Below are positions 1 to 50,979 of a DNA stretch of 64,000 bases, piece by piece (within the stretch, counting starts at the first letter, position 1; each line of letters opens with the position of its first letter). The notes below the pieces were generated by a model that was not told where the DNA came from, ran no database searches, and worked only from the letters and a program-made list of their open reading frames with translations. Source of the DNA: Geosiphon pyriformis uo1 (lineage: Eukaryota > Fungi > Glomeromycota); contig JAAOMT010000779.1 of NCBI GenBank assembly GCA_016748015.1, positions 356,220 to 420,219 of the forward strand, read 5' to 3'. The position numbers and the translations under genes were made by a program.

Positions 1-1722
1 AACTCCACCATAGTAGAAGAAACTAACTCGAACACCCTCATACCCAAATTCAAATCAATGTTTTCAAAGAAAACAGCAGCACCAGCTTTCATACCAAGAG
101 TACCCAGCCCATTTAGAGAACCATTTATAAACAAAGAAAGATGACCAGAATCAATCTCTAATAAACAATTGTACACAACTTTAAACTCATGAGACTTCAG
201 AATATTGGATGAACCAATGTATGGCAATAGAAAATTGCAAACAGCAGGTGGCCTAGAATTATTCAGATAGTGAACAGAAATATTAAACCAATGAAGAACT
301 GGGCCTTGAGGATTCAATTTTTTCCACTACTTAAAAGTCCTCTATTCAAAAACAGAACCAGTATGACTGCAAAGCTGCTCAACAAAGGCAATTCCATAAT
401 GCTGAAATGAAGAGACACATTTATAAAAAGTGGACTCACCAAAAATGACAGACATAGAGGTTCTATTTGGAAAACAAAAAACATTAGTCATGGGACCACC
501 GAGAGAAAAGTCGCATCCCAAAAAAATCTGAACAATACCAGCCAAAAAATTATTCAAAGGATTGATATTAATATGAAAAGAGAAAAACAGAGGATGGCAA
601 GGGCACCAGCTGAGGACCTGCAAGTTGTGATCTATGTGCAAACAAATGGCTCAAGATATCAACAGAATTGGCAAAATTAACAACAGAAGCTGACTTGTCT
701 TTAGCCTGAATCTGTTTAAAAGACTTCAAACTGTACAGAGAAGAATAGTAAATAGCATCATTGAGAAAGTCATGCGGCAAGCCAGATTTGGATTTTAAAC
801 CCTTGTGAATCATAGTGTCCCACTTCACACACACATTAATAGAAACAAAACTGATCTGAATCCTGTATACAACGATGGGGTGAAGAATTGCCAACACCAA
901 ATACAAGAACTGTTTGTCAAAAATAGTCTTTCTTAGCACAAGATTGGTGAAAAACCAGACATTCAGATGGGCCTTAGCCAAGCTAGGCTTTGACAAACCC
1001 TCAGTAAACAGAAAAATGCCTAAGTATTAATAAGACTCCCCTTTTTTGGCTATCAAAATAAGCAAACCACTGATCAGCAAACAAAGCTTAGAAACTCTGT
1101 AATTAATGGGAATGGCTACCATTTTGTTATTATTGATTGAAATGTCATTGATCTGAAAAAATTTGCTAGTGATTTTGAAAATATGTTGTGTAGTAGCCTG
1201 GCTGCTATCAATCCAAATAGTGTCATTGACAAAAGCACCTGCAGCAAGAAAAGAAGTCAAACCAGTCTGAGATTTAGAGCAACCAGTTCTGGTTACAAAA
1301 CAAAAGTCCAATCTGTATCTATACACACTTTTTTGTCTCTTGACTTCACACAAAAGAGGATCATAAAATATGCACCAAAGAAAAGAAGAAAACACCTCTC
1401 CTTGATTCAAACCATTATGTACTTGATATCTATCGGTCAACCCAAAATTCATCATAACTTTGCTGATTCAACCATTGTAAATGCTATTAAAAAACCAAAT
1501 AAACTTGTTACACATCTTTATCCTGACTAAACTCTCCCTAAGATGCTCCTAACCAATAGAATTATAAGTTTTTCACATGTCCTGCAATACTAGCCACAAC
1601 TTACAGTTCTTTTCTAAAGCATCTTTAATGACTAATCTAATAGTGAAGATAGGAAATTGTGTGGTCGTACCTTTTAGAACAGAAAAATTATCCTCTCTAA
1701 GAACATTAAACTTACTGTATGC
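1..1722 (-). pseudogene. LINE-A ORF2 3' part: reverse transcriptase and start of RNase H
   Basis: GLNQGEVFSS (QG..LSP), AFVNDTIW (F/YxDD), INNNK; RNase H motif near 60-140. Confidence 0.88.
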
Positions 1723-2807
1723 TGTTACGGGTAAACTTGGTGGGTATGGGAAATGGTAACGTTTGGTACTTTTAATTATTGATAATGTGTTTTCTGCATA
1801 ATTCTGTTGGCTTAGTTTTGATTATTAGTCTCTGAAGATCTATTCCTGGATGTAAATTTTACCTGTTGAGTTCTTTGGTTATAAGGCACAGAGTTTGTCT
1901 TTCGTCGATTGCAATGTTTTTCATAAATGTGAGCTTTTTTTTCTGAGCTAATGAGTGCAGTTGTTAGGGTTTGGCATTGTCTTTTTGCCCTTCTGGTAAG
2001 CTAACAAGATAATGTTAATATCCAAAACTTAGAGGGAGCTTCTTTCTTTTACCAGGCTATCACGAAGTCTATTCCCAGACAGTTGATTTTACTATGTTGC
2101 TGCTCCACAAAAAATTAAGACAGAAAAAAAAAGAAAAAGAAAAAGAAAAGAAAAGAAAAGATAAATTAGTATTGTCAATCACCATGATCAAGAGCGATTG
2201 GTCCAAATCATTAATAGGTTCGAGGTGGTTATGCTAAGAGCATCTATTTTAGAATGGAGGTATGAAACAAGAGTTAATTCACATAAATTTCATGAAGTTT
2301 GAGAACATGAATTCACGATTCTGATTTCTTTTAATAATTGATTTATTTCAGGAAATGAAATAGGGAAGATAATAAAAGATGAAAGAGTATGGATATTTTA
2401 ATTTCTGGTCTAGAAGTTCGTATCTATTTTTTTCTTTTCTTCTTTTCTCACTTCTACAACTACTTGCTTTTATACATTCTTTTGGTTTTACAGAATTGCT
2501 TTCAATTGTCTTGCTATCACTAGCTATTGTTTTGTTGTTTCTGTTATTGCTTTGTTTTTCTACATTATCACTAGTTATTCTATGTTATAACACATTATCT
2601 GACGTTATTACATGTTATTCTGTGTTATCTTGCGTTATAACATGTTATCCTATGTTATTGCATACTATTCTGTATTATCCTGCGTTATAACATGTTATCC
2701 AATGTTATAATGTGTTATCCAATATTATTGCATGTTATTCTGTGTTATGTCATGTTTTTGGTCACGTTTCTTCATAACTTTGGATCGGTTTTTTTACTTG
2801 GGTAACA
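1723..2807 (-). repeat. G1 3' LTR
   Basis: TGTTAC...GTAACA termini; direct repeat of 10846-11934. Confidence 0.97.
2570..2750 (+). repeat. ~10/20-bp tandem array (TGTTAT-core units) in G1 U3; also at ~11700-11880
   Basis: Repeated gttataacat/gttatcctgc/gttattctgt units. Confidence 0.85.
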
Positions 2808-2823
2808 TTATCCCTCTCTTTTT
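2808..2823 (-). promoter_or_regulatory. G1 polypurine tract
   Basis: AAAAAGAGAGGGATAA immediately before the 3' LTR. Confidence 0.9.
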
Positions 2824-3556
2824 AAAATTGAGCTTCTGTGAAACCATATGTATCTGTTATTGTGGCTTCGTTCGTGTAATGTTCGATTGTTGTCTCGAGT
2901 ATTGCCTTTTGTAGGTCTTCGAACTGTTGATTGGTTATTCGTCCTATGCTGTTAACCATTATGGTTTTCATAGATCCATTTAGTAGTATGTTTAGGCAAT
3001 GTTAGAAGGCAGTATATAGTCAGTATGCTGCTTTATAATATAGGGTCAGGTTGTTTTTCCCTACAAATTTTTCTACTTGTTGTATTGCTTCTTTGTTAAA
3101 CATTTTCTGGCTGAAGTCTTCATATAGTGTTTTCAAGTCAAGCTGTTCTCCAATTTTGTAGAACCAATAAGCTGGAGAAAGTCTTTCTTTCTATTTCTGG
3201 GCGTTGTCAGGTGTCCACTCCTCTGTCTTGGGGAGTTCGGTCCCATGAGCTAAAGCTTGTTTTATTTCTTCGAGCTCGGGGACCAAGTATCTTTTTTTGT
3301 AATCTTTTTCTCATTCTTTGTCTCCTTCTTTTTCACCTCCCACCTGAAGACAATTTTTTCTCCCACATTGCCTTTCGGGTGGTGGGTAGGGGAGAGAACA
3401 TTTAGTTCTAATTAAACTCTTGTCCTTCTCTCTTCTGCTCTTATTTTTGTATCATATCTCTTTTTTATCAATTGTTATTTCTATTTGAGATGTCGATTTT
3501 TGAATTGTTTCAAATAATTGTTTAGATAATTTTAAAATTTGATCTGAAAGGTCCAT
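2822..3556 (-). pseudogene. G1 ORF3, 245 codons, unknown function
   Basis: One frame from ATG 3556 to TAA 2822-2824 with five stops, each explicable by a single transition; homologous to the same position in G2, G3 and G4. Confidence 0.8.
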
Positions 3557-3636
3557 GTTGAAATTTTTATTGTTTCTTGCTGCTTTTCAGATGCTATATA
3601 TATTTGAATTCCCTAATTTAATTTGCTGCCCATTGT

Positions 3637-5004
3637 CTATGTTTCAATGACAATAATTGGTTTCAGATCTCGTGGTATATCTTCTGGTTTGATTAATGAA
3701 ATTTGTGTTTTTAGTTGAGGTACTGATGACAATGATTCCTGTTTTACATGATAAATTTTTAACTGATTTCCATGCACTACTTTCTTTAAAATCTTGTCTT
3801 CCAATCATAATTTGTAAGCTCTATTTCCTAATGCTTCGTATATGTGGAATGGACCATCCCACTTTGGGTCGAACTTTCCACTCCACTGTTTCTCAGCTTT
3901 TGTACGATGTAACAGTACTTGGTCTCCAATCTTGAATTCCATTGGTTGTTTTGGCAGGTGTTTATCATGTCTTTCTTTTTGTCATTCTTGAGCGTAACTA
4001 ATATTGTCAGCTGCTATTTTTCGATTGTTTTCCAATGTTTCCATTAGCTGGTATGTTTTTTGGTATAAGGTAGCCTCAAAATTCTCTTCATTGATTGTTT
4101 CTGTTGGGTATGATGGTATCACTTGTTCAATTAGTAACATAGCTTTTCTTCCATAGACTAGTTTGAACAGTGTGAACTGAGTCATATTTTGTTTTAATGT
4201 TCAGTATACAAAGAGTACAGAAGATATGAATAAGTCCCATTCTTGTCTGTTTTCATGACTTATTTTTGCTAGTGTTTCACACAGTGTTCTGTTAAACTGT
4301 TTTACCAGTCCGTTCATTTGTGGGTGGTATGGTAATGATAAGAGTTTCTTTATTCCAAACTGTTGGCTTAATTCAGTCAGCGTATTATTAACAAAATATG
4401 TTCCCTGATCAGATAATAATTCTTTCGAACATCTATGTCAGCAAATTAGGTCTTGATGCACAAATTTGGCGACTGTTTTGGCATTGGCCACTTGGATTGC
4501 TCTGGCTTCTGGCCATTTTGTAAGATAGTCTACGACTACAGTAATATAGCAATTTCCTTGGGATGTAATTGAAAGAGGTCCAATCAAATCAATCCTAATT
4601 TTATCAAATGAATTTCTAACTAGAATGGGTTGAAGTGGTTCTGTTGATCTTGCTCCTCCTCTTTGCTGGCATGCATTACAATTGAGCACATATTCGAAAA
4701 TGTCTTTGTGTATCGTTGGCCAATAGTATAAGTTTAGTGTTCTTTCGAGGGTAGTGTCTTTGTTAAAGTGTCCTGCAATCAGATCTGAGTGCACACTATA
4801 TAGTATAGTTTCTCTTTCACTGTCCGTGATTAGTTGTTGTGAGTTGGGGTGGTTTTGGCATTCTCATTGATATAGTTGGTTGTCTTGAATAAAATAATTT
4901 CAGGCTTGTTTTTGTATGATACTCTGTTCCTGTTAAGATAATATCTCCTTGAAATGTAATGTCGATAGGTACTGATGTAGTCATTAATAAGTGAGTGTGT
5001 CCAT
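3637..5004 (-). pseudogene. G1 integrase, separate ORF (HHCC, DDE, GPF/SH3-like C-terminus)
   Basis: Own ATG at 5004; HSDLIAGH..CNAC, IRIDL, SDQG, KWDGPF; ends PIIVIET*. Confidence 0.9.
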
Positions 5005-5014
5005 GAGTCTGGGA

Positions 5015-5431
5015 TTAGATTTGTGGCATCCTCAACAAACTGTTGACATTGGTGTTCTTGGATCCTTTCTTGTAATGGACTTTAAGTGGGAATTGTTGCA
5101 AATAAGTACTCCATCTCGCATATTTTCCTTCTAGTTGTGGATTGTTAAGTAACCAAATAAGTTTTTTGTGGTCAGTATATAGATCAAATGGTTGACTGAG
5201 GTAATGTTTCCAAGTCTGTATGGCCCAATAAATGGTAAGACATTCCAGATCTGTTGTGCTGTAATTTTTTTTTGCTGGGCTAGTGCTGCGACTAGCATAG
5301 ACAACTGGGTGTTCTCTATTGTCTGATCCTATCTGTGATAAGACTGCTTCTAGAGCATTTTTCGAGGTGTCCATAGCAACAATGAACTGTTTAGTGAAAT
5401 CTGGGTAAATCAGGATTGGGGATGTGATCAA
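5015..5431 (-). pseudogene. G1 RNase H (ends ORF1 with a TAA stop)
   Basis: AMDTS..AVLSQ..YASR..NYSTTDLE..YTDH..NVNSLLR, stop at 5015-5017. Confidence 0.93.
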
Positions 5432-5578
5432 TCACTGCTTGAGATAGTCGAATGCTTTCTGTTGATCTTCCTTCCACAAGTACGGTATGTATTTGGACAA
5501 CAATTGATGGAGTGGTTTTGTGATGTTCAAAAAACCTTTGACAAATCAATGATAATATCTTGCCAATTCTAAAAATCC

Positions 5579-6460
5579 TCATAATTCTCTGAGATTGATT
5601 GGGACTGAAAAATCCTTGACTTTTTGTACTTTATCTGGATCGGGTTTAACTCCGTCCTTGCCGATTACATGTCCTAGGAATTTTAACTCGGTTTTTCCAA
5701 AGAAACACTTCTTGGGATTGAGTTTCAATCTGACACTACAAAGGTGTTCGAAGACTTGTTGCAGGTGGAGCAGATGGTCTTCAAATGTTTTGGAGAATAC
5801 ATTTGTGTCGTCTAGGTAGACTACTACTAATTTCCAAAGGATTCCTTTGTATACTACATCCATCAGACATTGAAACATGGTAGGAGCATTACAAAGTCCA
5901 AAAGACATTACATTAAACTCAAAGTTTTCGTTTTGAGTGGTAAATACTGTTTTTCCTTTGTCTTTGGGGTCCATTTCAACTTGCCAGTAACCACTTGCTA
6001 AATTTAATGATGAAAACCATTTCTTTTTCCCTAGATTGTCCAGAATTTCCTGGATGAGGGGAGTGAGATAACTATCTCCTCATGTGATGCTATTTAGTTT
6101 TCAATAATCTATGCAGAATTGCACTTTTCCATTTTTCTTGGTAACCAAGACTACTGGCGAGGACCAAGGGCTTAACAATTCTTTGATTAGGCCATTATCA
6201 AGCATCCGTTGCACTTTTTGCTTAACTAGGTTATCACCAGATGGGGGTACACAGTAAGCTCGTTGCTTAATTGGTCGAGCGTCTCCTGTATCAATCTGAT
6301 ACTTCACAATGTTGGTGCGTCCGAACTCATTTTCGCTGGCAAAGACATCAGCATACTGATTCAGAAGGACTTTAAGTTGCATTTGTTGCAGGATACTTAA
6401 ATTTCCTAAATTCAATTTATTGATCTCTTCTGGTGTGAACAAGTAACTTTCTTTTGGCAA
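5579..6460 (-). pseudogene. G1 reverse transcriptase
   Basis: SPWSSPVVLV..FCIDY; MSFGLCNAP; VVYLDD; KFLGH. Confidence 0.95.
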
Positions 6461-6839
6461 ATTCCATACTTGTGAGGTAATGTCACAGAATAAGAATAAT
6501 TGTGTGAAATCTGGAATGGACTAGGGTTTTTCAGGATTCTGACTATCTGCAGATATAGAACCAATGAAGGTCCCTTCGAGGATTTCAATGACATCTTCTG
6601 TCGGATTGTAGATGGGGATTTTGAAATGTTTATGGGCTTTGGCCGGTAGGTATAGATTAGCAACATCAGCTAGAGAACAGATTTCGGGACTGGCTTTAAA
6701 TAATAAGGCTTGATCTTGGATCTTTTGATTCACCTTGAGGATATATTGTCGGTATGGAGGAATGGAAATGATGGTATTAGTGTGGATAAATTCTATCTGG
6801 TCACTGTCTTCCTCCATGAAATTAACTAGTACGTTTCCT

Positions 6840-7240
6840 CTTCCACTTGATCCAAACCCGTTGATTCTTTGGGCAGTGAGGCCTAACTCTTCTCGGGTTG
6901 TTACCAGAGTTAATTGGGGTATTTTGACTAGGGGTAGGAAGATAGCTTGGACAATCTTTTCTTGTAATTCTATTTTGTAGAGTCTGTCTGAATTGTTCTA
7001 TAGCATCATGATGATGTTTCCCGTGTAACTGGCATCAATGATTCCTTTTTTTATGTCGATTCCTTTCTTGGCTAGACTAGATCGAAAGACAACTTGTACC
7101 ATTGTACTAATAGGAATTTCTAACACTATCTTAAGATCTATTTTTATGAGGGAATGTGGAACTATAATGATGGGTAATTGTCTGGGATATCATAGGTCGA
7201 AACCAGTATCAGTGTCATGTGCTCTTTTGGAGCAGATTCC
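6840..7240 (-). pseudogene. dut: G1 dUTPase domain
   Basis: All five trimeric-dUTPase motifs: DTGFDL, FRSSLA, GIIDASYTGNI, KIVQAIF, QRINGFGSSG. Confidence 0.9.
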
Positions 7241-7419
7241 TTCCTCGTTGTCACTGTACCATTTTAGCTCTAGTTCTTTGGATAGGTTGGGATATGCAAA
7301 ATACTGTTCTGTTTCGGTATCCTTAGTTGGATCTTGAAATGACATGTTCTTGGTGATCAATACCTCTTCTTCGAGTTCAGGTAGTTCAGTGATTGGAAAC
7401 AGTATTCTTGGAGGCGGAT

Positions 7420-8050
7420 TGAACATAAGATCACATTCATCGCACTACTGGAAGTGACAGAGGATCAAACAGTGATCGCATAGTTTGGTATTCAAATTGG
7501 CCAATCTTTGCTCCTGTTCCTCGCAAGTCAGGGCCAATTTCTGATATTGGTTCTGAAATGTGTCTGGGTCATCTGTGAAGAAATCATCCTCGGGGTAGTC
7601 GGGTCCAATATATTTGAGTGTTCAAGGGTTGTTCTTAATTTCTCGTATTTTTTCAGGCGTGGCACCTTCGGCCTTGGTGCTTGCCATTCTTCAAATTTTA
7701 TGGTCATCGTGTGGATAACCATTTAGTCTGTTGAGTGCTCATTTCCAAGCGTCCTCAATGGGGGTTCCCTTTCATACCCAATCATTGATTAATATGGTGT
7801 ATTGACAAGCCTCATCGCATGTTTCTCCTCTGCCAGGCACATCATTTCAGAGTCCTTCATCTGACAGAATTTTGCCACATGTGAGGCATGGCATGTGGTT
7901 CTACTTGTCTTGTTATTTTGGTCGTCCAAATCTTTCCAGTAAACAAGGCCTGCAATAGTATTTGGTGGCGGTGGACCATTCTTCGTTGTCCCCAATACAT
8001 GTGCCCATAGTGGATAGTTTTTTTTCACAATCGACACATATTAGTCTTGG
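7420..8050 (-). other. G1 Cys/Trp-rich putative Zn-binding module between PR and dUTPase
   Basis: In the pol frame: CVDC..YYCRPC..PCLTC..DVPGRGETCDEACQYTILINDW..; homologous to G2 29010-29410. Confidence 0.7.
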
Positions 8051-8293
8051 GAGTTGGTAAAATAAGTTTCTTTGGTCCAAGGTTATGTATCCTAGTGATG
8101 ATGATTGGGGTTTTTCTTTGGCTCTGCCTTTTCCTTTTTCTTCTCAGGTTGGTGGTGGGGGTAGTTCAGTTCGATAATTATCTGCCCATAAAACCTGATA
8201 GGTCTTGATGATTGGTGGCATTGATGTTTCTTTGAATTCAATAAGGGGTTTCTTGGTACGTTGGTTTTTAAAGTGTCCGCATGTAGCTGAGAC

Positions 8294-8701
8294 TCAGGTA
8301 TGCTGTCCGTTGAATGTGAGTTGAAGTTCTTGGGTGTTCCAGTTAAGAGTAGCGTTGGCTTTTGACAACCAGTTATTTCCTATTAGAGCTTGATATTGTG
8401 TAGCTTCCATAATAAGTACTTTGATAGGGATTTGGATTCCATTAATCTTGAAGGGGAAGTTGTCAATTTCTTCTATTGGGGTTTTTGTGTTCTCATCTGC
8501 TGTAATGATCTGGGCAGTAGCAACACAGTCTACTTGGTGACCTAGTTGGTCCATGAACTGCTTCGTGATTATGCTACCGGCTGATCCACTATCCAAAATT
8601 AATTTAATGTCTATTCTTCTGACTTTGGCATCAGTGTATAGGGCCATTATTGGTTTATCCTGATTGATGGCTGCTCCACTAAAAAGGCTATGTGTGTTCA
8701 A
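8294..8701 (-). pseudogene. G1 aspartic protease
   Basis: LILDSGSAGSII; ALIGNNWL. Confidence 0.92.
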
Positions 8702-8899
8702 ATTATTGATGTCAAAAGGAAATATGGTGGCTAGGGTGGTGTCTTTGGTAATAGTGACTGGTGGGATATTGCTTTTTGTTTGCTTGGAAGATTGGAAGAT
8801 TCATTCTATATCTCCCCCTTCCACAGGTGTAGATTTATCAAAACCCTGGTCTTCCATAAAACCGAAATAGAAAGCTTGATTTGGGTATCCAGTTGGTGT

Positions 8900-10800
8900 T
8901 GGTCAAGATTGGGCAGAACCATGAGGGATTGGTCAAAACAGTCCACTGTTGGTTTGTACCTGATTGTTATTGGGATTCCTCCATCTCTGATTATAGTCTA
9001 TAGCTTGAGGTCTGGACAGGCTGTAAGGGGAAGTTTGATGGTGAGGGATTGCTTGTGTCATTGGTGGTGGTTGATAATAATTCTGGGGCAGTGGTTGAGT
9101 GTACGGAACTTGTTGTGCATATAGGGGTGGTTGATTCTGAGGTATGAAATATTGGAGTATCATGTTTTGCTGATATCTGGATTGCTGGTATGGATTTCCT
9201 TGATTTTAGTCCATGATCTTCCTTCTGCAGTCATGGGCGATGTGTTCAGGTTTCTGGCAGTAGTAGTAGTTGTGAGGATCGGATCTCCAAGATTGTTGCT
9301 GTGGATATCTGCTGTTGTTGTTATTTTCTCTTTGTTGGGGTGGTTGGTAAGTTCCTGTAGTTCCGGTTAAGAATCCCTCAATTTTCTGAGTTAGTTTCTT
9401 ACTCAATTGGGTTATTTTTGCATTGATATCAAAGGTTCCGTTAATGGCTAAATTAACAGCTTGAGTATGATTCGCTTCTTGTTCTGCAGACTCAAAATCG
9501 CAAGCGAGAGTGATGGCGTGTTGTAAACTGGTCAGATGGCGGGGTCTTACAGATCTTAGAATACTACTCCACAATCCTTTAATGAATTGATTAAGAACTT
9601 GTGCCATGGTGTAGTAGTTCCTTTCGATAGCTAATATTTAACGCAGAATTTGATTGAATCGTCCGAGATAAGTAGTTACAGCTTCATGATCTTTTTGTTT
9701 AATTATGTTAAATTGATTTTGCAATTGGATTAACGTATTGGGGTCACAGAAGTATTGCAGAAATGTGAGTTTAAACTTGGTAAAGAAGGTAAGCTTCTTT
9801 GCCAGGCTCTGGTACCACGAATCAGCAGTTCCGGTCAGAAAAAACAGCAGTGCCTAAACTGTGCAGTTGTTGTTTCAACCATTAGCGGTAATTGCTTTTT
9901 CGGCATCCACGATTCAAGAATATGTGTTATCTTCTTCACCAGAGAATTTTTCCAATTTAGCGATATTCCGGTAAGCCATGATCCGATTAATGGGTGGGAT
10001 GTTACTGGTTATGTTTAAAGGGATTGGTGTCTGCGTATTTGAGTGTTCTTCAGGTGCTAATGCTGGTTGCTTTCCTTTGTCACTTGAATCAATAGGTTGT
10101 AAGATAGCTGTTTCTTCCGTCAGAGGAGATGCTGATTCTGCTAGGTTTTGTGCTGGTGGCTGTTCCCAAGTTGACGGGTTTCCTTCTGTTTGACTGGCTG
10201 CTGGGTTAAGATTTCCAAACAGTGATCCATATTCTCCTAGTGATTTGGTCCAACTGTATTGATTCTAAGGGTGTGGATTTTTAGAAGTTTGTGATGTTTC
10301 CAACTGGGTTTCCGGGGGTGGGTTGAATACAATTCTACTTTGGGGTGTCTGATGGTATAATAGAGTTGTTGGAGAGAGGACCCTTGGTTTTTTGTTGACT
10401 GTAAACTTGGCTTGGGCAGTTATGAGGTTGTTGGATTCGTTTTTGTATTCCTCAGGGTCAGATTTCACTGGTTGTTGTACTTGAAGAAATTGTTGTTCCA
10501 CATAATATTTAATGTCTGTATCGATTATGTGCAGAGTTTCAGCGATTGCTCGGGTAGTTGTGGCTGTTGAGTACCCTAGTAAGCTTTGATGAATTTGTTT
10601 TTCAAGTTTTCCTGTATCAGTTGTGCGGCCTAACAAGCAGTCAATTTTTGCATTGATATAGTTACAAAAATCACTTTCTGCATAAGCGGTTCTTACTGGT
10701 ATTCTTAGGTCTTTTCAAAAGTATTGAAATAGTGCTTTTCTGTACGAAGAATGGTCCTTTCTTATTGTTCCAATAGTCGCCACTTTTATGTATTTTTGGG
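8900..10800 (-). pseudogene. gag: G1 gag (capsid domain with MHR-like QxxxEAVxxYxxRF; CCHC knuckle; Gln/Pro-rich tail)
   Basis: ORF pieces 10265-10636, 9206-9607 (YYCQKPEHIAHDC) and 8933-9163, all in one frame. Confidence 0.88.
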
Positions 10801-10826
10801 AATGCTTTGTTTCTGTAGATTTATAA

Positions 10827-10843
10827 CCTCACAGGGAGCACCA
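10827..10843 (-). promoter_or_regulatory. G1 primer-binding site (TGGTGCTCCCTGTGAGG)
   Basis: Starts with TGG, 2 nt inside the 5' LTR; complementary to a tRNA 3' end ...CCTCACAGGGAGCACCA (elongator Met or Ile by resemblance, identity not confirmed). Confidence 0.9.
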
Positions 10844-10845
10844 AA

Positions 10846-11934
10846 TGTTACAGGTAAACTTGGTGGGTATGCAAAATGGTAATGTTTGGTGTTCTTAATT
10901 ATTGATGATGTGTTTTCTGTATAATTTTGTTGGCTTAGTTTTGATTATCAGTCTCTGAAGGTCTATTCCTGGATGTGAATTTTATCTGTTGAGTTCTTTG
11001 GTTATAAGGCACAGAGTTTGTCTTTCGTCGATTACAACGTTTTTCGTAAATGTGAGCTTTCTTCTCCGAGCTAATGAGCACAGTTATTAGGGTCTGGCAT
11101 TGTCTTTTTGCCCTTCTGGTAAGTTAACAAGATAATGTTAATATCCAAAACTTAGGGGGAGCTTCTTTCTTTTACCAGGCTATCATGAAGTCTATTCCCA
11201 AACAGTCAATTTTACTATGTTGTTGCTCCATAAAAAATTAAGACAAAAAAAGAAAAAAAAAGAAAAAGAAAAGAAAAGAAAGAAAAGATAAATTAGTATC
11301 GTCAATTGCCATGATCAAAAGTGATTGGTTCAAATCATTAATAGGTTCAAAGTGGTTATGTTAAGAGCATCTGTTCTAGAATGGAGGTACGAAACAAGGG
11401 TTAATTCATGTAAATTTCACGAAGTTCGAGAACATGAATTCACGATTCTGATTTCTTTTAATAATTGATTTATTTCAGGAGATGAAATAGGGAAGATAAT
11501 AAAGAATGAAAGGGTATGGATATTTTAATTTCTGGTCTAGAGATTCATATCTATTTTTTTCTTTTTTTCTTTTCTCACTTCTACAACTACTTGCTTTTAT
11601 ACATTCTTTTGGTTTTACAGGATTGCTTTCAATTGTCTCACTATCACTAGCTATTGCTTTGTTGTTTCTATTATTGCTTCGTTTTTCTACATTATCACTA
11701 GTTATCCTATGTTATAACACATTATTTGATGTTATTACATGTTATTCTGTGTTATCCTGCGTTATAACATGTTATCCTACGTTATTGTGTGCTATTCTGT
11801 GTTATCCTGCGTTATAACACGTTATCCAACATTATAACATGTTATCCAACATTATTGCATGTTATTCTGTGTTATGTCATGTTTTTGGTCACATTTCTTC
11901 ATAACTTTGGATCGGTTTTTTTACTCAGATAACA
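10846..11934 (-). repeat. G1 5' LTR
   Basis: TGTTAC...ATAACA termini; adjacent to the PBS. Confidence 0.97.
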
Positions 11935-11938
11935 ATGC

Positions 11939-13753
11939 AAAAAAAATCCTGTTCAAAAGAATCTTGGAAAAAATTTTACAAGTTGTCTCAATCAAAGCAA
12001 TAGGATAAGTGTTCGTAAGAACACCCTTTCACTCATATGGTTTGGAGATCATTGACACCCAAGTCTTCTTTTAAGGCCCAGGAATAAATTCACAATCCAA
12101 GCAAAAGTTCAAAAGCACCAAAAGCATATCCAAAACTGATTTGTCACAATGTTTTCATAACTCATTTGAGATACTAAAAAGACCAGCCACTTTCCCATCA
12201 GGCAGATTTGAGATAACACCAGACATCTTATTGAAGTTAATTAAACACATCACATCAGAGAAGACATCATTAAAAACATACTCCAAAGACTAGTATTAGC
12301 AATGCCATACACCAGAGACAATAGAAACCACATTGCGCTTTCTAGTTCATTCTTCTATGATCACATTCACTTTGGTTCTAACCAGATCAGATTCCAAAAC
12401 TAATTCATCATTCATAACCAGATAATCTAAAGTCACTTTGCAAAAGAAATGTTCTAACACACTCCTAATAGTATAATTTTTGTTTAATTCGAAACTTTTC
12501 ATTTTCTTATCTATTGCTGACCTGATTTTAGATTCCCTAACATGTTCCACTTCCAACATTTTGGAAGAGTAATATGACTTTCTAACTTTGGACAAAACTG
12601 ACCAAATGGCATCAAAGAAGGAACCTGACAGAAAAAAAAACTTCATTACAGAAGCATTAATTGAATTCAAACTTTCCTACTTGTCAAGCAAGAATGTAAA
12701 TTCTTCAAAAGAATTCAAACAAAACGTCTTAACCAACTTTGACACTAAGAGCTCCAGCTTGTGAAATTTGAATGACTTCTTAACAAAAACGTGATCATAA
12801 TTTTTAAACTATTTCTTCTTAAAAACTGCCTCAGCAAATAAACATAATACTTTACAGAGAACAACTTACATCGCATCCAAGTCTGAGTGCATTCTGGTCA
12901 CAAGAAAGTTGTCATACAACATAGCAGCATTTGCCACCGTATCATCCTTAAATTTGGCCCATTTAATATTATCCGCCCCTTTGCAATTGTACTTCCAACA
13001 ATTTTTATTTGCTTGTTTGCGAATAGAATTTAGTCAGACATCAAGCAAACCATCTATATTTACCAACACTAAAACAGTCTGATGATCAGTATCAAAGTAT
13101 TCCTTAACACCAAACACACCATGACCCACCACTGCATTGACCAAGTTCAAAGAAATGAGCACATAATCTATCATCTTGACAATGCCTTGAGAATTGGACT
13201 AAGTTGGTGCTTTTTCACAAGAGCTCTCACCTAAGGCATTAACTAAACCAAAATCTAAACATTTCTTGAAACTTGTACACTTACTGAAACCATCTTCATT
13301 AAAATTACCTCCAAGAATAATGAAAGAAGATTTATTGACAGTCTTAGCAATAAGAGAATTGATATCACCAGTCTGAGAAAACTGGGCTACTGAAAAGACT
13401 TCAGCATAAAGCCCTAAAATTGACACTGAAAGTTTGTTTTTGAAAAGCAACTTGATAGACAGAAGCTGACCAGGCACTTCTGAAATTTTGCATATATGTC
13501 TTGTCAAAAAAGAGTTCATAACAACCACAACACCAGCACCCAGATAACCAGATTTTAAACCAGAGGTAAACACTTGCACATCATCAAATTTGTTGACAAT
13601 TCAGAGGTGAATCTTCCCTCTTAACTTTGATTCTGTGAAAATAGAAACTAAATTGTTCTTTTCCTTGTGCCAATGAATGATATCATCCTGCTTAGCAGGA
13701 TTGTTTATTCCTCTAACATTACAAATTACAACTTTCCAGATCATATCACTCAT
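11939..13753 (-). pseudogene. LINE-A ORF2 5' part: APE endonuclease, linker and start of RT
   Basis: ICNVRGIN, GVVVV and ILGGNFN (GDFN) motifs; ORF pieces 13199-13579 and 12347-12670. Confidence 0.88.
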
Positions 13754-17617: not shown

Positions 17618-17634
17618 TTATTTTCTTTTTTAAT

Positions 17635-18240
17635 ATTAAGCTCTGTTAAAATTTTTATTTTGAATTAAGTTTATTATTTTTTTTAATATTGTTTATTCAA
17701 TTTTGTTCCTTATTTTTTTATATTAAAAGTTGTTTATTCTTCTTTATTGATTAACAGTTATTGTTTCTATTTTTTAGTATAGCAGTATTTTTGGATAACT
17801 TTAAAATATGGTATGTAGTTAGTAAATTGTTTTGATGTATAGTTTGGATTTTGTCTTTTTTTTCATAAAATCTTCAATTTATTGTACTATTTCTTGATTG
17901 AATATTCTTTTGAATTTATTAATATATAATTTCTGGATATTTAGCTTTTGTTTCAATTGATAATAATAGTATAATACTGGAAGTTGTTCTATTTATAGCT
18001 TTCAGTTTTCTTTAATTAGCTCTTTTGTTAAGATTATTAATAGTATTTTCCCAAAAGTGTTTATTACTTTTTCTATAACTTTATTTAACTAGTGTTTTGT
18101 TTGATTCTGTGGTTACTGATATGTAGTGCTTTTTGCTTTTTTTGCTTTTTGGTGTTTTGATAACAAATAATTTGGTAATTAATAACAATTTCTATGTTTA
18201 ATTATTGTTAATTTATGATCTAAAATAATTGTTGTACTAT
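17635..18240 (-). pseudogene. G3 ORF3 remnant
   Basis: PVLYYYQLKQKLNIQKLY..IFNQEIVQ..LYIKTIY..ITVN aligns with ORF3 of G1 and G2. Confidence 0.72.
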
Positions 18241-18489
18241 TGTGTATATTGAAATTTTGATGTGTTTGTTGTTTTTGGCTGGTATATAAAGATTAATAAT
18301 GGCAATTTTTCTTAATTTACAAATGTTTGTTTCTGTTTCAAAAATTTGGGATTGGTCTTTTACTTTTTTTTTTATAACTATCATATATTAGTTATATGAT
18401 AAAATAAAAATTGATTAATGAATAGAAATAATTTCTCTTTTATTAATTGTTTCTTCTTCTGTTATATTAACTGGTATATTTATTCTACT

Positions 18490-22640: not shown

Positions 22641-22677
22641 GTTTTTTGTTGGATTATACCTCACAGAGAGCACCAAA

Positions 22678-23395
22678 TATTATAAGTAATTATGTGGAAT
22701 GTTGATACAAATAAACCTGTAACTTGGTGCTTAATAGCTTGGTAATATTAGTAATATTTGAAGGTTTTGAAGTCTAAAGGTTTTGGTTAAGTTCTTTGTA
22801 TTATGAACAAAAATTCAATAAATAGTTTCTTCTGTGAATTTCTTTCTTTAGCATAATGACCAGTTTAATCTGACAGTTATGTTTTTTTGGTAAGCTATCT
22901 TTAAATTTCTACCCTTATTTCTGGATATTTTACTAAACTATTTTTGATGTCAAATACTTAGCACTTAATTTTTTAATCATTTAGTAAACAACAAAGAAAA
23001 CAAAACAAAAAAAATAAAAATAAAATAAGAAATTAGTATCTTATCAATAGTTGTGATCAAAAATTATTGGTTTAGTATGGTTAAGTATTAATAGAATGGA
23101 AGTAATTAATATTTCTTAATCAAGTAATAATAACATAAATTCAAATAATAATAGATATTTTATTAATGTGTAATTTGATTTTGCTTCAAGTTATAGAAAA
23201 CTACTTTTTGAAAGAAAAGATATTAAATTATTAATTGATTATTGATATTAATTCTGTCTTTTTTGCTTTTAATATTTTTATTATATATACATAATTTTTG
23301 TTATATAAGATCTCATATTTTCTTATATAATATGTACTATTTTCTTTAATAATACTCTTATTGCTAAGCAATATACTATAATTTTCTGACAATGT
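22678..23395 (-). repeat. G3 5' LTR, first segment (remainder at 33063-33091 and 37500-37644)
   Basis: Colinear with 16714-17445; preceded by PBS cctcacagagagcacca. Confidence 0.88.
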
Positions 23396-24246
23396 TGTTA
23401 TAGGATGGTTTTCTTGGTATATATTTAATTGCTGATATCCTGTCCTAATTACAATTAGTCTTTTGTGAATTCCTTAATTCTAATTGTATGATAATATTGG
23501 TATTTAAGCTGCTGGTTTCCTTTTGATGTCCTGATATAAGCTATTTTTCAATCTCTGATTATTGTATGTGTTTATGTACTCCTTTCCAGAGGCTGAACTG
23601 AAATCTACCTGCTGTCTGGGGTCTTTTCTGAGGCTATCTTTGCAATTGCCTAATGTGTTTCTCTAATCTAGAAACATGGAATGTTAATAGCCTTTAGTGC
23701 TTTTCTTAATTCTTACAATAAAGCTTTTATCAATTAGTAACAACGTGAATAATCTTGATCAAGGATTATTTTTCCAAAAAATTTAGCTAATGAATAATAG
23801 TTTCATTCAATAAATAATACAAGTAAGTTTTTTAACACTTTGGATTGTGATAATTTAGTTTTAAATATTCTTTTTCATTTCTTTTTAATTTAAAGGTTTC
23901 TTGAGATATTTTATTTAAAAGTACGATTTAAAGTGGAGTTTGTTGGATAAATTGAATCTATTACTTGATAAGTTATGATTTTTATTACTTCATTGCTTTT
24001 CTCAATATTAAAGCTACTGTATATATACATATTTGTAGTTCTATAAGAAAACATATTTTAATACTTTCTTTTTGATATTTCAATCTGGTGTTTGCTGCTA
24101 TTGTAAACTAGTGCTTATTACTATCATGAAATAGTGTTTGCTATTATGTTAATCATTACTTTTCTAAGATTATTACTGCACTATATTATAATTGAATAGT
24201 TTATATTATTTTTATGATTCTTTTTCTAAATTCTTAAACCATAACA
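23396..24246 (-). repeat. G2 3' LTR
   Basis: TGTTAT...ATAACA termini; direct repeat of 32208-33058. Confidence 0.96.
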
Positions 24247-24259
24247 TTATCCTCTCCTT

Positions 24260-24930
24260 TCAAGATTGAGCTTCATCGAAATCAAAGTTAATTTCTTCAT
24301 TAAATTCTAAGTTACTATAGTGGTCCAATACTGTGTTATTAATTTGTTGTTGTAATTCTTGAAATTACAAGTTGGTAAATTGTCCAATACTGTTAGTTGT
24401 TATTATGTTCATGGTTGAGTCCAATAATAGTTTGTGACAGTTTTCAAATGCTTTAAAAATTCTGTAAACTGTTTTTAAATAGAATGTAGTATTGGTTTTT
24501 CCAATAAAAGGTTCTAATAGTTGGATTGTTGTTTTGTCAAACACTCTAGTTGAGTCTTTTAAGTATAATGTTTGTATGTTCAAGTGCTTTCCTAGTTGAT
24601 AATAACAGTAGTTAATTGGAAATTTTGTTTTCAAGTTGCTAAATGTGTCTGGTGTTAATTCACTTATTTTTATTTCTTCTATTATTAATGTATTGCCTAA
24701 TATTATTTCTAATTTTTCAATAACTTTGCTGATAAATTTGTTGTTATGTTTGATAATATTATATGATTCAAAATTATGTTCTTTTCTTGTTTTTGGATTT
24801 TCTATTGTTCTTTTTATGTATGTTATTTTGGAGCTATTAACTGTAATTTTCAGATTGAATTTAATTATTGTAAGCTTTTAACTAATTGTTGAATTATATT
24901 GTTGATGTTTTCTGGAATAAGTATCATTGT
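24260..24930 (-). pseudogene. G2 ORF3, unknown function
   Basis: PINYCYYQLGKHLNIQTLY..FYLKTVYRIFKAF..NSIGQF..DFDEAQS*, ending at the PPT. Confidence 0.8.
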
Positions 24931-25009
24931 TTTAATTTTAACTGCTATTTTGGAATCTTTTGCATGCATTTTTATGGTTGTTAAATCATTTTTGCTGTGA
25001 TCTAAGATT

Positions 25010-26391
25010 AATTATTTTTTTGAATAATGTTCAATTAAAACTATTGGTTTTAAATCTCGTGGAATTTGTTTTGGTAGAATTAAAGATAATTGTGTTCCAA
25101 TTCTGGGTGTTTTTGTTGTTATTACTGGTTTACTGTAATAGAATTTCAGCCAGTTACCATGTGCTGCTTTTCTTAATATTTTATCATCTAGTCTTAGCTT
25201 GTATGCTCTATTTCCAAGTATTTTATAAATATAAAATGGTCTATCTCACTTGTGATCAAATTTTCCATTCCATTGTTTTTTCATTTTTGTATGATGCAAC
25301 AATACTTTATCTCTAATTTTGTAGTTAATTATATTATCTGGTAACTGGTTATCATGTCTTATTTTTTGTTGTTTTTGTAATTGTTTAATATTTTGTGTTG
25401 CTTTTCTTCTTTTGTTTTCTAAAGTTTCCATTAATTCATATGTTCTTCTAAGTAGTGTTTCCTGAAATGTTGTTTCAGTGATAGTGTCACTTGGATAAGT
25501 TGGGATAGTAAGTTCAACTGGTAATGTGGCTTTTCTTCCATAAACTAGTTCAAATGGTGTGAATTGTGTAGTATCTTGTTTTACTGTTCTATATGCTAGT
25601 AGTACTGCTAGTATGAACAAATCCCATTCTTTTTCATGTTCGTTACTAATTTTTGCCAGTGATTTGCATAATGTGCGATTAAATCTTTCAACTAATCCAT
25701 TTGTTTGACAGTGGTATGGTGATGACAATGGTTGTTTGATTCCAAATTTTTGGCTAAGTTCTTTTAAGATGCTGTTTACAAAGTGTGTGTCTTGATCTAA
25801 TAGCAATTCTTGTGAACATCTATGCTGGCAAATTAAGTTTTCATGTACAAATTGAGCTATGGAAATAGTATTAGCTGTTTTAATAGCTCTAGCTTCTGGC
25901 CATTTGGTAAAATAGTCCACAGCTACTGCAATATAATGGTTGTTTCTTGTTGTTATTGGTAAGAGTCCAACTAAATCAATTCCAATTCTGTCAAATGACT
26001 GTTCAACTTTTATTGGTCTTAATAATTCCATTGTTTTTGCTTCTCCTCTTTATTGGTATAAGTCATAATTTTTTATGTATTGGATTATGTTTGAACTCAT
26101 TTTTGGCCAATAGTAATGGCTAGTTGCATGTTGGATGGTTGCTGTTTTTTCAAAGTGGCCTGAATGAATATCTGAGTGCATGTTAAATAAGATAGTTTCT
26201 TTTTCATCTAAAGTTATAACTCTTAATAGATTATTTGGATTTTGTTGATTCTGGTAATAAAGTATGTGATTTTGGATGAAATAGTGTTTTGCTAATTTTT
26301 GGAACTTAATTAGCTTTTTTACTGGGATTTTTTCGTCTATTTGTAGTGTTTCTAAGTATTGGCTGAGGTTTTTGTAAAGGTAGTTGTTCAT
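25010..26391 (-). pseudogene. G2 integrase, separate ORF
   Basis: Own ATG at 26391; HSDIHSGH; IGIDL; LDQD; NGLVERFN. Confidence 0.92.
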
Positions 26392-26420
26392 TGTTGTTAT
26401 GGTAGATGGGTTGGTAATTT

Positions 26421-27800: not shown

Positions 27801-28244
27801 AGAATTCATTGTTCCAATATTTAATTTGGCCAATTCTTCTGGCATAAATTGATAGTATTTCAACAGTTGTTGCCAATTTATTGAAGTAAGTTTACAGTAG
27901 AGAGCAATTTCTGGGAAATTTAGAATTTTTTGTAATGTTGACATGTTTTCTGTTCTGAGGTATCCAATAATGGTATCTTCCAGAATGTAGACAGGTTCTT
28001 CTGTGGTGTTTGCAATAGGAATTTTTATTCATTGAGCTTTATCAGCTGGAATAAAAAGGTTAGTAAGTCCTATGAAAAACTGTTGGCAAGTTTCTGAATA
28101 GAGCTTAAATATTAGGTCTTTTTCTTTAATTGTCTTTTTTATTCTTATTTCTGATTTTTCATATGGTAGAAGTATGATAGACTGCTTAGTTTTAATTACT
28201 TTGCCTTTTTCTTCTATTGTTTCAGTAAAATTTGCTTTAATTTC

Positions 28245-49486: not shown

Positions 49487-50042
49487 TATTACTAAAAATT
49501 TTTGGTCTCTTTTTTAAAATGTTATTAATATTTGTTTACTGTGAATTTATATTTATTAGAAGTTATTGAATCTCTAATAACTGAATTTATCTTCAAATTA
49601 TAAGAGATAATTTAAACTGTTAAGCTTATAAGTAAAATAACCAATTTTATATTAGTTATTATATATAGTTACTTTATAGTAAAAAATCAATTCTTTTTCA
49701 GGAATTTTTTTCTTTGTTATAATTTTGACAAATTAAAGATACATTGTAATAAACTATAAGTTATATTGATAAACTATTAACTATTTTGGTAAATTTATCT
49801 ATTATTTTTACAAATTTTTACAAATTTTGGTGAATTCTTAAATGTTATATAGTTTTGAATATTGTGTAATTTAATCATTCTAATTTCTATTATATAAATT
49901 GAATTATTAATTAAATAATAATATTTAATAATTTGATTAAATAATAAGTAATAATTTAAAATGATATTAATATATACTAATTAATAATAAGAATTATAAA
50001 GATAATTTTATGCTAGTTAATAACTAAATTCTGCTGGTAACA
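49487..50042 (-). repeat. G4 3' LTR (lacks ~400 bp)
   Basis: Matches 58877-59100 and 59500-59836. Confidence 0.85.
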
Positions 50043-50054
50043 TAATTTCTTCCT

Positions 50055-50700
50055 TAAAACTAAGCTTTGTTGAAGTTCAAATACTATCTGTAATATTAAT
50101 ATAGTGATCCAAAATAGTTATAGTAATTTGGTTTGAAAATTGTTGAAATTTCAGTTCTGTAAATTTGTCAATATATTGTATCTTTATTGGTTAAAGTATT
50201 GGATTTTGTAGAATATTTTTGCAAGTATTAAATAAATCATAAAGTCTAAATACTGCTCTAAATTTATAGTGAGTATTTGTTGATCCAGTTATTGTCTTGA
50301 ATTCATTGTAAATTTGTTTTTGTATAGTTTCAAAAGTAAAATTTGTTATTACAAGTTTTAATTTTTATTCATAAAATGTTCTTTCAATATGAAAATATTT
50401 GTATATAAAAGTATATTCATTATTTTTTTTATTAAGATACTGTAAAAGTTTTTGTTGAGTTGTGGTATTTGGTAAAATGTCAATAAAAGTGAATACAAAA
50501 TTTTTTTTAAAGCTTGTTTCAAAAGTTCCAGTAATTAACTTCCAGAATAACTTTTTGTGTTTCTTCTATAAGAGTGATAATTTTGATTATTATTTATTAT
50601 TAATGTTATAGTTTCTTTTTGGGTGTAATTAATTTGACTTTTATTAATCATTATGAATAAGTTAAAAAGTGTTTTCAAAGTTAACATTAATTTCTGGAAT
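50055..50700 (-). pseudogene. G4 ORF3 remnant
   Basis: QIYNEFKTITGSTNTHYKFRAVFRLYDLFNTCKNIL..IDKFTELKFQQF..ILDHY..FNKA*F*. Confidence 0.7.
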
Positions 50701-50979
50701 ATTTGTTAAATATTTTATAGAATAATTATAATAAAATAAGTATAGTTGCAAATAAAATTTGAAAAGATTTGAAAAAGAAAATAAATTTTAAAAATATTTA
50801 AAAAGAGAAAAATATGAAAAATATTTTAAATATTGGATTTTTATCTATTTTTGGTTTTGAGTTTTTTTGTAATTATTTACTATTTTTGTTTTATGTTTGT
50901 GTATTTTAATGTTAAATTAAATATTTAAGTTTGGTTATTGTTTTATTATAACTATTAATTTTGTGTCTTGGAGAATATT

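What the first reader, a model, noticed from the sequence alone, without database searches (positions are those of the whole stretch)
2822..3556. Conserved ORF3 of unknown function in the env position, present in all four LTR families
Seen: the ORF track misses it, but G1 holds a single 245-codon frame between IN and the PPT with only transition-type stops. Its C-terminal ~120 aa align across elements with very different LTRs. G1: PAYWFYKIGEQLDLKTLY..MFNKEAIQQVEKFVGK..LYYKAAY*LYTAF..VNSIGRI..F..L..EHY..GFTEAQF*. G2 (24260-24930): PINYCYYQLGKHLNIQTLY..VFDKTTIQLLEPFIGK..FYLKTVYRIFKAF..TNSIGQF..DHY..DFDEAQS*. G3 (17635-18240): PVLYYYQLKQKLNIQKLY..IFNQEIVQ. G4 (50055-50700): FRAVFRLYDLF..DHY. There is no signal peptide or TM segment, so it is not a classical env. 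It is retained even in non-autonomous G3. Inference: a lineage-specific helical accessory protein, for example a nucleic-acid binder, anti-silencing factor or IN cofactor.
Basis: partly seen in the sequence, partly recalled or inferred. Interest (0 to 1): 0.85.

Follow-up and report, generated by a model that had tools for sequence, protein, structure and literature searches.

The report
Fungal retrotransposons' hidden nuclear regulator gene
Four decayed Gypsy-type jumping genes in this fungal DNA each carry a real, selection-maintained third gene just before their end repeat, and it likely encodes a nucleus-targeted regulator that would switch on the element's own transcription, much as the extra genes of complex retroviruses do.

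Summary
Four Ty3/Gypsy elements with unrelated LTRs carry homologous ~240-codon ORFs ending at the PPT. G1–G2 are 39% identical over 135 aa, with dN/dS about 0.20, like integrase (0.18). Stop-free copies exist in Geosiphon pyriformis gene models. Two unnamed metagenomic lineages also have it; one sits in the same RT–IN–ORF3–PPT–LTR layout (L001). No copy has a membrane segment, so it is not env. New anatomy: a conserved N-terminal helix-hairpin, a basic linker with an R/K/H-x2-5-PY motif in 8 of 9 lineages (candidate PY nuclear import signal), and a confidently predicted helical core with a conserved basic turn-helix. Two corrections. The terminal AQF/AQS match is a DNA motif read in different frames. 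G3's copy has lost its start and is fused to pol by a deletion, so its retention proves little. Best guess: a nuclear regulator acting on its own LTR (0.35). Rivals are RNA export (0.2) and an adaptor for the stand-alone integrase (0.2). No function is shown. Extra env-position ORFs are known, and this scan noted similar third genes on other genomes (homology to this family not established).

The parts
2822..3556 (-). G1 ORF3, 244 codons plus stop, 5 internal stops; 79% identical to the stop-free 244-aa protein P0006
3437..3556 (-). N-terminal module of G1 ORF3 (predicted helix plus two-strand hairpin), conserved across lineages
3386..3466 (-). Basic linker ending in PY (residues 31-57): candidate basic PY nuclear localisation signal; matches the strict yeast pattern of PMC2408616
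2867..3229 (-). Conserved helical core of G1 ORF3 (residues ~110-230) with the G-K-T/N-N turn and a following helix bearing conserved basic residues
2808..2836 (-). Conserved DNA motif (GAGCTCAAT-like) overlapping the ORF3 end, then the PPT (2821-2808)
1723..2807 (-). G1 3' LTR (91.8% identical to the 5' LTR); 4-bp target duplication GCAT
3557..3636 (-). 80-nt A-rich spacer between the IN stop and the ORF3 ATG; holds one TATATA 46 nt before the ATG (not shown to be a promoter)
3637..5004 (-). G1 integrase (H2C2, rve, SH3), a separate ORF whose ATG lies 10 nt after the RT-RNase H stop
5015..6520 (-). G1 RT-RNase H; closest solved relatives are Ty3 RT chains (E 1e-73)
6842..7231 (-). G1 dUTPase domain between protease and RT
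8297..8800 (-). G1 aspartic protease region
9209..10714 (-). G1 gag (Retrotrans_gag, Ty3 capsid-like, zinc knuckle)
10846..11934 (-). G1 5' LTR, followed by the PBS
17630..18261 (-). G3 ORF3 remnant: start lost, joined in frame to post-dUTPase pol by the deletion of RT-IN, one frameshift, 11 stops in the 159 codons read
24260..24927 (-). G2 ORF3: ATG at 24927, frameshift near codon 20, one internal stop in the 205-codon main frame
50017..50729 (-). G4 ORF3 remnant (approximate ends): decayed start, one frameshift; this type reads through the PPT into the 3' LTR

Best explanation
ORF3 is a conserved third gene of a dUTPase-bearing fungal Ty3/Gypsy lineage, and its protein is likely a nuclear, DNA-binding regulator that would bind the element's own LTR and keep it transcribed. 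SHOWN: position between integrase and PPT, homology across nine lineages, purifying selection, stop-free copies elsewhere, no membrane segment, a conserved basic PY motif. PREDICTED: helical core, flexible linker. INFERRED, in order: (1) ORF3 is made from its own short mRNA (internal promoter or splice), since it lies behind two stop codons; (2) the basic PY linker is bound by Kap104/transportin and brings the protein into the nucleus; (3) the turn-helix with conserved K/R/N residues contacts LTR DNA; (4) the acidic tail or the N-terminal module recruits host factors, raising LTR transcription or countering CpG-methylation silencing. It would work like foamy-virus Tas without being shown to be related to it. 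All four copies in this window are dead.
For: Coding and selected: pN<pS and highest identity at codon position 2 in 10 of 10 ORF3 pairs; G1-G2 dN/dS 0.20 versus 0.18 for IN. Stop-free copies: P0006 (244 aa); 29 G4-type proteins of 230-250 aa among the 235 held; P0188 in L001. Same layout in a distant element: RT-RH stop, IN with its own ATG, 316-nt spacer, ORF3, PPT, LTR. Soluble: highest 19-residue hydropathy 0.44-1.33 in 9 of 9 proteins tested. R/K/H-x2-5-PY in the linker of 8 of 9 lineages (58 of 100 proteins that hold the N-terminal hairpin), against 3.2% of 3,324 background windows from the same elements' gag and pol. The segment is basic (+4 to +7 in the 10 of 11 representatives with a PY) and has pLDDT <50 in the model. 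That fits the PY-NLS rules of PMC2408616 (abstract and passages). Conserved polar positions cluster in one turn-helix: G145, K146, N148, K/R154, R158, plus N181, G184, K/R185 (P0179 numbering). The last 35 residues are net acidic in 8 of 9 proteins. Precedent: Tas proteins are 209-308 aa, lie 3' in the genome and have DNA-binding and acidic activation domains (PMC3798896, passages). TEs are CpG-methylated in the related fungus R. irregularis (10.1101/2021.03.30.436303, passages), and CpG is depleted in this window.
Against: No step of the mechanism is shown. A PY-NLS says nucleus, not DNA: the two yeast cargoes studied in PMC2408616, Hrp1p and Nab2p, are mRNA-binding proteins (titles in its reference list; own knowledge). 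The G5 lineage lacks the motif (0 of 5), the strict yeast pattern fits only 3 of 11 representatives, and the lineages are kin, so 8 of 9 is conservation, not nine independent tests. In the window only G1 keeps PY. The structural leads to DNA-binding domains are weak and tied with unrelated folds: CHD1 C-terminal domain Z 4.6 (rmsd 3.7, 79 aligned), sigma-F Z 4.4 (2.4, 56), ParB Z 4.0 (3.0, 59). The acidic tail is partly dictated by the purine-rich PPT and the DNA motif before it. Stop-free metagenomic proteins are acidic overall (pI 5.2-5.9). The four LTR families share no detectable sequence, so binding specificity would have to have diverged with them. A TATA-like hexamer is present in only 2 of 4 spacers, in A+T-rich DNA. 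dS is near or at saturation in most pairs, so the ratios are rough (range 0.02-0.59; undefined in 3 of 10).
Confidence: 0.35

Rival explanations
1. ORF3 is a CERV/Rev-like RNA regulator. It would enter the nucleus, bind the element's unspliced genomic RNA and license its export or processing, which an element with separately translated IN and ORF3 may need if those come from spliced messages.
For: Direct precedent in a Gypsy element: the env-position ORF of C. elegans Cer1 forms part of nuclear CERV, needed for gRNA export (PMC10309623, abstract and passages). PY-NLS candidate. IN and ORF3 both lie behind stop codons in G1, G2 and L001.
Against: ORF3 has its own conserved ATG and N-terminal module, whereas CERV is spliced to gag-frame exons. 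No splice acceptor pattern is shared by the four spacers.
Confidence: 0.2
2. ORF3 is an adaptor for the stand-alone integrase. Because IN is not part of Pol here, ORF3 would bind IN or the cDNA ends and carry the pre-integration complex into the particle or the nucleus, or steer target choice.
For: IN is a separate ORF directly upstream of ORF3 in G1, G2, G4 and L001. 25 Geosiphon gene models join an IN SH3 tail to ORF3 sequence, showing linkage elsewhere in that genome. A nuclear import signal would suit this role.
Against: Linkage follows from position alone. Four-taxon IN and ORF3 trees were unresolved, so co-evolution is not shown. Earlier notes call the stand-alone-IN lineage widespread (unchecked), while ORF3 homologues were found only in Geosiphon and two unnamed lineages.
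Confidence: 0.2
3. ORF3 acts on host defence or on sibling elements without binding its own LTR, for example as a suppressor of small-RNA silencing or as a copy-number control factor.
For: Gypsy elements produce small RNAs and TEs are methylated in R. irregularis. TE-encoded anti-silencing proteins exist (VANC; PMC5735166 and PMC10398659, search listing and start of abstract only). ORF3 diverges faster than IN (27-40% versus 54-57% identity between the same elements), as arms-race genes do.
Against: Faster change is equally usual for small regulators. No catalytic or RNA-binding family was recognised.
Confidence: 0.13
4. ORF3 is an env-like or structural particle protein that helps the element move between nuclei or cells.
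For: Env position and sense orientation. Weak leads to filamentous-virus coat proteins: Atlas score 0.91 to Closter_coat with only 138 of 256 shared features and recognition 2116, below the tool's 2300 mark; VIA Z 4.8 (rmsd 2.8, 66 aligned) to the PFV2 capsid protein.
Against: No hydrophobic segment long enough to span a membrane in 9 of 9 proteins. Gag already supplies the capsid. Both leads are in the range the tools describe as chance.
Confidence: 0.05
5. The similarity reflects conserved cis-acting DNA or RNA near the PPT, not a protein.
For: True for the last ~5 codons, where one DNA motif is read in two frames.
Against: Codon-position pattern and pN<pS in 10 of 10 pairs; other frames score 53-116 against 265; stop-free ~235-aa ORFs in several lineages.
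Confidence: 0.02

Closest known systems
Ty3/Gypsy (Metaviridae) LTR retrotransposons of fungi with dUTPase, e.g. PosPlaTy3-5, and fungal elements drawn with an 'add. ORF' (Novikova et al. 2010, PMC2864245; passages read)
   Same: LTR-gag-PR-dUTPase-RT-RH-IN-PPT-LTR order; dUTPase between PR and RT; an extra ORF of unknown function is drawn for some fungal elements.
   Different: Here IN is a separate ORF and the extra ORF is a defined family conserved over nine lineages. Whether any 'add. ORF' of that paper is homologous was not tested; its figure and supplement were not seen.
CERV of C. elegans Cer1 (PMC10309623; abstract and passages read)
   Same: Non-env ORF in the env position of a Gypsy element; candidate nuclear signal; lineage-restricted.
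   Different: CERV is 517 aa, spliced to gag-frame exons, with a possible C4 zinc finger. ORF3 is ~240 aa with its own ATG and no conserved cysteine cluster. Homology was not tested directly.
Foamy-virus Tas/Bel1 transactivator (PMC3798896; passages read)
   Same: 3'-proximal accessory gene of similar size; proposed nuclear DNA-binding plus acidic-tail layout.
   Different: Tas belongs to vertebrate retroviruses, follows env and has a proven internal promoter and response elements. None of these is shown here and no homology is claimed.
[quoted passage not shown]
   Same: Conserved extra ORF in the same place and orientation.
   Different: Those often have transmembrane segments or known enzyme domains (GDSL, DEDDy). 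This ORF3 has neither.

Membership tests
Ty3/Gypsy LTR retrotransposon (host element) | Paired LTRs with TG...CA ends, target-site duplication, PBS and PPT | tested here: met
   G1 LTRs 91.8% identical, TSD GCAT; G2 91.2%, TSD ACAT; PBS and PPT seen
Ty3/Gypsy LTR retrotransposon (host element) | Order PR-RT-RH-IN and RT closest to Ty3 | tested here: met
   Pfam domains in order; best solved-structure hits are Ty3 RT, E 1e-73
env / env-like ORF | Sense ORF between pol and 3' LTR | tested here: met
env / env-like ORF | Signal peptide and transmembrane segment | tested here: not met
   Highest 19-residue Kyte-Doolittle mean 0.44-1.33 in 9 of 9 proteins, below the usual 1.6 mark (own knowledge). 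No dedicated signal-peptide predictor was run.
env / env-like ORF | Spliced subgenomic mRNA | not testable with these tools
   No RNA reads were available to lay on the element
Basic PY-NLS (Kap104/transportin cargo) | R/K/H-x2-5-PY in a basic segment | tested here: met
   8 of 9 lineages, 58 of 100 proteins; net charge +4 to +7; absent in G5
Basic PY-NLS (Kap104/transportin cargo) | Structural disorder over 30 residues or more | tested here: inconclusive
   pLDDT <50 only at residues 45-55 of the P0179 model and 51-62 over residues 21-60; low confidence is not proof of disorder
Basic PY-NLS (Kap104/transportin cargo) | RanGTP-sensitive binding to Kap104/transportin | not testable with these tools
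   Needs a binding assay
Foamy-virus Tas (works-like candidate) | Sequence or fold homology to Tas | tested here: inconclusive
   Family and fold searches gave no verdict on Tas; no direct comparison with a Tas sequence was made
Foamy-virus Tas (works-like candidate) | Acidic activation domain | tested here: inconclusive
   Last 35 residues net -4 to -9 in 8 of 9 proteins, partly forced by the PPT
Foamy-virus Tas (works-like candidate) | Internal promoter and sequence-specific binding to LTR response elements | not testable with these tools
   TATA-like hexamer in 2 of 4 spacers only
Cer1 CERV (works-like candidate) | Homology to CERV H, M or G domains | not tested
   No CERV sequence or model was in hand
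Cer1 CERV (works-like candidate) | Required for nuclear export of genomic RNA | not testable with these tools
   Needs genetics
Helix-turn-helix DNA-binding domains | Structural superposition on a known HTH domain | tested here: inconclusive
   ParB Z 4.0 (rmsd 3.0, 59 aligned), KorB Z 3.5 (5.2, 95), tied with unrelated helical folds

The most novel reading that the evidence does not exclude
This fungal Gypsy lineage is organised like a complex retrovirus: Pol, a stand-alone integrase and a third gene are translated separately, and the third gene encodes a PY-NLS-imported transactivator or anti-silencing protein of an undescribed helical family that recognises its own LTR. It would be a self-regulating LTR retrotransposon in a fungus, and could help explain why LTR elements fill about 41% of the Geosiphon genome (figure from PMC11952901, passages).
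Probability: 0.25. Interest if true: 0.75.

Novelty: new variant of a known kind. Interest (0 to 1): 0.5.

Why it matters
Most non-env ORFs in the env position of LTR retrotransposons have no known function (stated in PMC10309623). This one gives a testable case: stop-free natural proteins from several lineages, a confident model of the core, invariant residues to mutate and a candidate import signal that can be assayed in yeast. A nuclear regulator would show that fungal Gypsy elements can control their own expression or resist methylation silencing as complex retroviruses and plant VANDAL transposons do. A practical point: hundreds of Geosiphon 'hypothetical proteins' (258 hits; the 120 listed are all Geosiphon gene models) are this transposon gene, often mis-spliced to integrase or host sequence, not host genes.

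Tried and rejected
No whole genome is held for this window, so copy number and linkage could not be counted on DNA. Family libraries: no Pfam family reached a cut-off for P0002 or P0003 or recurred among the 21 members of A3 (19 families, one member each); PHROGs best E 0.001 and NCBIfam best E 5e-4, far below cut-off, for 7 proteins each. PDB sequence search with the profile: best E 0.21, importin-5, rejected. Fold searches: Foldseek found 0 matches at E<=0.001 in PDB and BFVD for the P0179 model and in BFVD for the P0011 model. VIA-align found 0 of 48,161 chains at Z>=5 for either model; the second list was filled by an N-terminal helix of P0011 that is partly out-of-frame gene-model sequence, so it barely tested the core. 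This does not show a new fold. ESM Atlas: no usable hit for P0006 110-244; for P0179 only weak leads, including an unnamed 98-member eukaryotic cluster, commonest Mucoromycota, at 0.90. I recall a large unnamed Glomeromycotina protein family with a similar helix pattern; this is recalled, untested, and the profile search did not list such proteins by name. No RNA holder was listed for 2400-4900; this is no evidence on expression. Locus scans with no confirmed relative: P0006 in metagenome contigs, P0179 in viral contigs, L001 integrase in viral and prokaryote contigs. A two-copy complex prediction was never run because the queue was full. Four-taxon IN and ORF3 trees were unresolved, and the RT tree was discarded because I sliced G2 out of frame. 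A TATAAAA seen near the G4 start proved to lie inside the coding region. Look-ups of earlier findings by sequence gave nothing for P0006 or P0053. Paper searches that found no description of this family: (open-access library only; the Geosiphon genome papers were not among the hits, and the supplement of PMC2864245 listing fungal elements was not read).

Full report
Setting. The window is A+T-rich, CpG-depleted DNA packed with nested transposons. No genome is held for it. All 38 proteins found with G1 ORF3 are named Geosiphon pyriformis gene models (38 of 163 candidates), the best at 79% over the full length, so the host is inferred to be that fungus or a close relative. LTR elements are reported to cover 41.2% of its genome (PMC11952901, passages).

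The elements. Four Ty3/Gypsy elements lie on the minus strand. G1 (1723-11934) has LTRs 91.8% identical and a GCAT target duplication. G2 (23396-33066) has LTRs 91.2% identical, an ACAT duplication, and sits inside the 5' LTR of G3. G4 spans about 49459-59844. G1, G2 and G4 carry gag, protease, dUTPase, RT-RNase H and integrase; G3 has gag, protease and dUTPase only. G1's RT is closest to Ty3 RT among solved structures. The four LTR pairs share no blastn similarity.

The observation. G1 3556-2822 is one frame of 244 codons with 5 internal stops; shuffles give 17.2 on average and 0 of 2000 give as few. All five are one transition from a sense codon. tblastn links G1-G2 (39% over 135 aa, E 1e-21), G2-G3 (33%, E 4e-13), G2-G4 (37% over 65 aa, E 2e-9) and G1-G4 (28%, E 0.003). 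Five of six window pairs stand far above shuffles (z 13-45); G3-G4 does not (z 3.7). A family profile finds only these four places in the window.

Selection. In 10 of 10 pairs among G1-G4 and L001, pN is below pS and codon position 2 is the most conserved. G1-G2 dN/dS is 0.20, against 0.18 for integrase of the same pair. dS is close to or at saturation, so values (0.02-0.59, undefined in 3 pairs) are rough. Other frames score 53-116 against 265.

The family. An alignment search gave 258 proteins among 2,776 candidates; the 120 listed are all Geosiphon. A word-free profile search of 1.84 billion representatives gave 77 hits: 17 already named Geosiphon and 60 new, of which 18 were looked up (16 Geosiphon, 2 unnamed), 5 more were named Geosiphon, and 37 were not looked up. 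A third search gave 63 of 3,944 candidates: 61 Geosiphon, 2 unnamed. The unnamed proteins form two lineages, P0179/P0212 and P0188/P0211, stop-free, 230-234 aa, about 30% identical to the Geosiphon G4 type and 37% to each other. L001, the contig of P0188, reads RT-RNase H, stop, integrase with its own ATG (one internal stop), a 316-nt spacer, intact ORF3, PPT and LTR-like DNA. An ORF3 tree of 16 rows splits into G1/G2/G3/G5 and G4a/G4b/metagenomic groups (100/99), with a long-branch warning. 29 of 235 proteins held are near-full-length G4-type copies, and 25 gene models join an IN tail to ORF3.

Anatomy. No protein of 9 tested has a membrane-length hydrophobic stretch. AlphaFold2 on P0179 (21 sequences) gives mean pLDDT 75, with 88-96 over residues 81-160: an N-terminal helix and two-strand hairpin at lower confidence, a flexible linker, a helical core and a long final helix. 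A G1-family model (P0011, 36 sequences, pLDDT 76) shows the same run of core helices. Across eight lineages the conserved polar positions gather at a G-K-T-N turn and the helix after it (K/R154, R158) and at N181, G184, K/R185. The linker, otherwise poorly alignable, holds R/K/H-x2-5-PY in 8 of 9 lineages (G1 10 of 17, G1b 2 of 2, G2 4 of 7, G3 1 of 1, G4a 26 of 40, G4b 11 of 24, M1 2 of 2, M2 2 of 2, G5 0 of 5; 100 proteins kept by a hairpin pattern and a score filter from the 225 then held). Background in the elements' own gag and pol is 3.2% of windows. The lineages are kin, so this is conservation rather than independent recurrence. The motif, basic charge and flexibility match the PY-NLS rules in PMC2408616; the strict yeast pattern fits 3 of 11 representatives, including window G1.

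Two corrections. First, a DNA motif just before the PPT is shared by G1-G4 and L001 but read in different frames, so the terminal AQF/AQS likeness is cis-acting DNA. Second, the deletion in G3 joins post-dUTPase pol in frame to about codon 4 of ORF3 and removes its start. With 11 stops in 159 codons and a place beside the PPT, this copy is no evidence that non-autonomous elements need ORF3.

Mechanism. ORF3 lies behind two stops, so it likely needs its own mRNA or re-initiation (inference). A nuclear signal, a conserved basic turn-helix and an acidic end best fit a regulator of the element's own LTR, working like foamy-virus Tas (PMC3798896, passages) or an anti-silencing protein in a host clade that methylates TEs. 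I give this 0.35. Structural leads to DNA-binding domains are weak (Z 3.5-4.6) and tied with unrelated folds. A CERV-like RNA-export role (PMC10309623) and an adaptor role for the stand-alone integrase get 0.2 each; other anti-host roles 0.13; env or structural 0.05. Together the three nuclear readings make about 0.75. Whether the protein dimerises or binds IN is left open.

Comparison and novelty. Extra ORFs in this position are well known in plants (PMC7264820, first third read), rotifers (PMC5408684, passages), nematodes and some fungi (PMC2864245, passages; dUTPase between PR and RT is also described there). Six paper searches of the open-access library found no account of this family; the Geosiphon genome papers and the supplement of PMC2864245 were not seen and may bear on this. 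Earlier notes of this scan report similar third genes on other genomes and the stand-alone integrase in this genome; sequence look-ups did not link the former to this family. Verdict: real, undescribed as far as I could search, a new variant of a known kind; interest 0.5.

Noticed in passing
window 5004-5017 (G1), 26389-26425 (G2), ~52290-52335 (G4); L001 772-801: RT-RNase H ends at a stop and integrase starts at its own ATG a few to ~30 nt later (ATG not recognisable in decayed G4): integrase is a stand-alone ORF. Earlier notes on this genome report the same.
   Followed up: partly
window 2808-2836, 24245-24275, 17620-17645, 50045-50070; L001 3090-3120: A GAGCTCAAT-like DNA motif directly before the PPT is kept in all five elements although the LTRs are unrelated, and is read in two frames; likely a cis signal for plus-strand priming or RNA handling.
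   Followed up: partly
window 50017-50055; L001 3110-3148: In the G4 and metagenomic type, ORF3 reads through the PPT into the 3' LTR, so its last codons are encoded by U3.
   Followed up: partly
   Followed up: partly
window 10829-10845 and ~22660-22678: G1 and G3 share a nearly identical PBS despite unrelated LTRs; G2 has a variant. It resembles the 3' end of an isoleucine tRNA (recalled, not tested).
   Followed up: no
window ~7400-8050 (-): Cysteine-rich, zinc-finger-like stretch between protease and dUTPase in G1 pol, with no Pfam match in the part scanned (6521-7600).
   Followed up: no
window 54605-55588: An inverted copy of the G4 LTR (76% identical to 58876-59844) lies inside G4's own pol, between protease and dUTPase.
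   Followed up: no
window 258-1723 and 11940-12062 versus 42983-44572: G1 is inserted into another repeat that has a 70%-identical inverted relative at 43-44.6 kb; its type was not determined.
   Followed up: no
protein P0014: One Geosiphon gene model joins a G4-type ORF3 to a G1-type ORF3, likely a prediction artefact across nested elements.
   Followed up: no
window ~2540-2790 and ~11690-11920: The U3 start of the G1 LTR is an array of short imperfect repeats (ATAAC-rich), a candidate binding array for a regulator (seen by eye; no repeat tool run).
   Followed up: no
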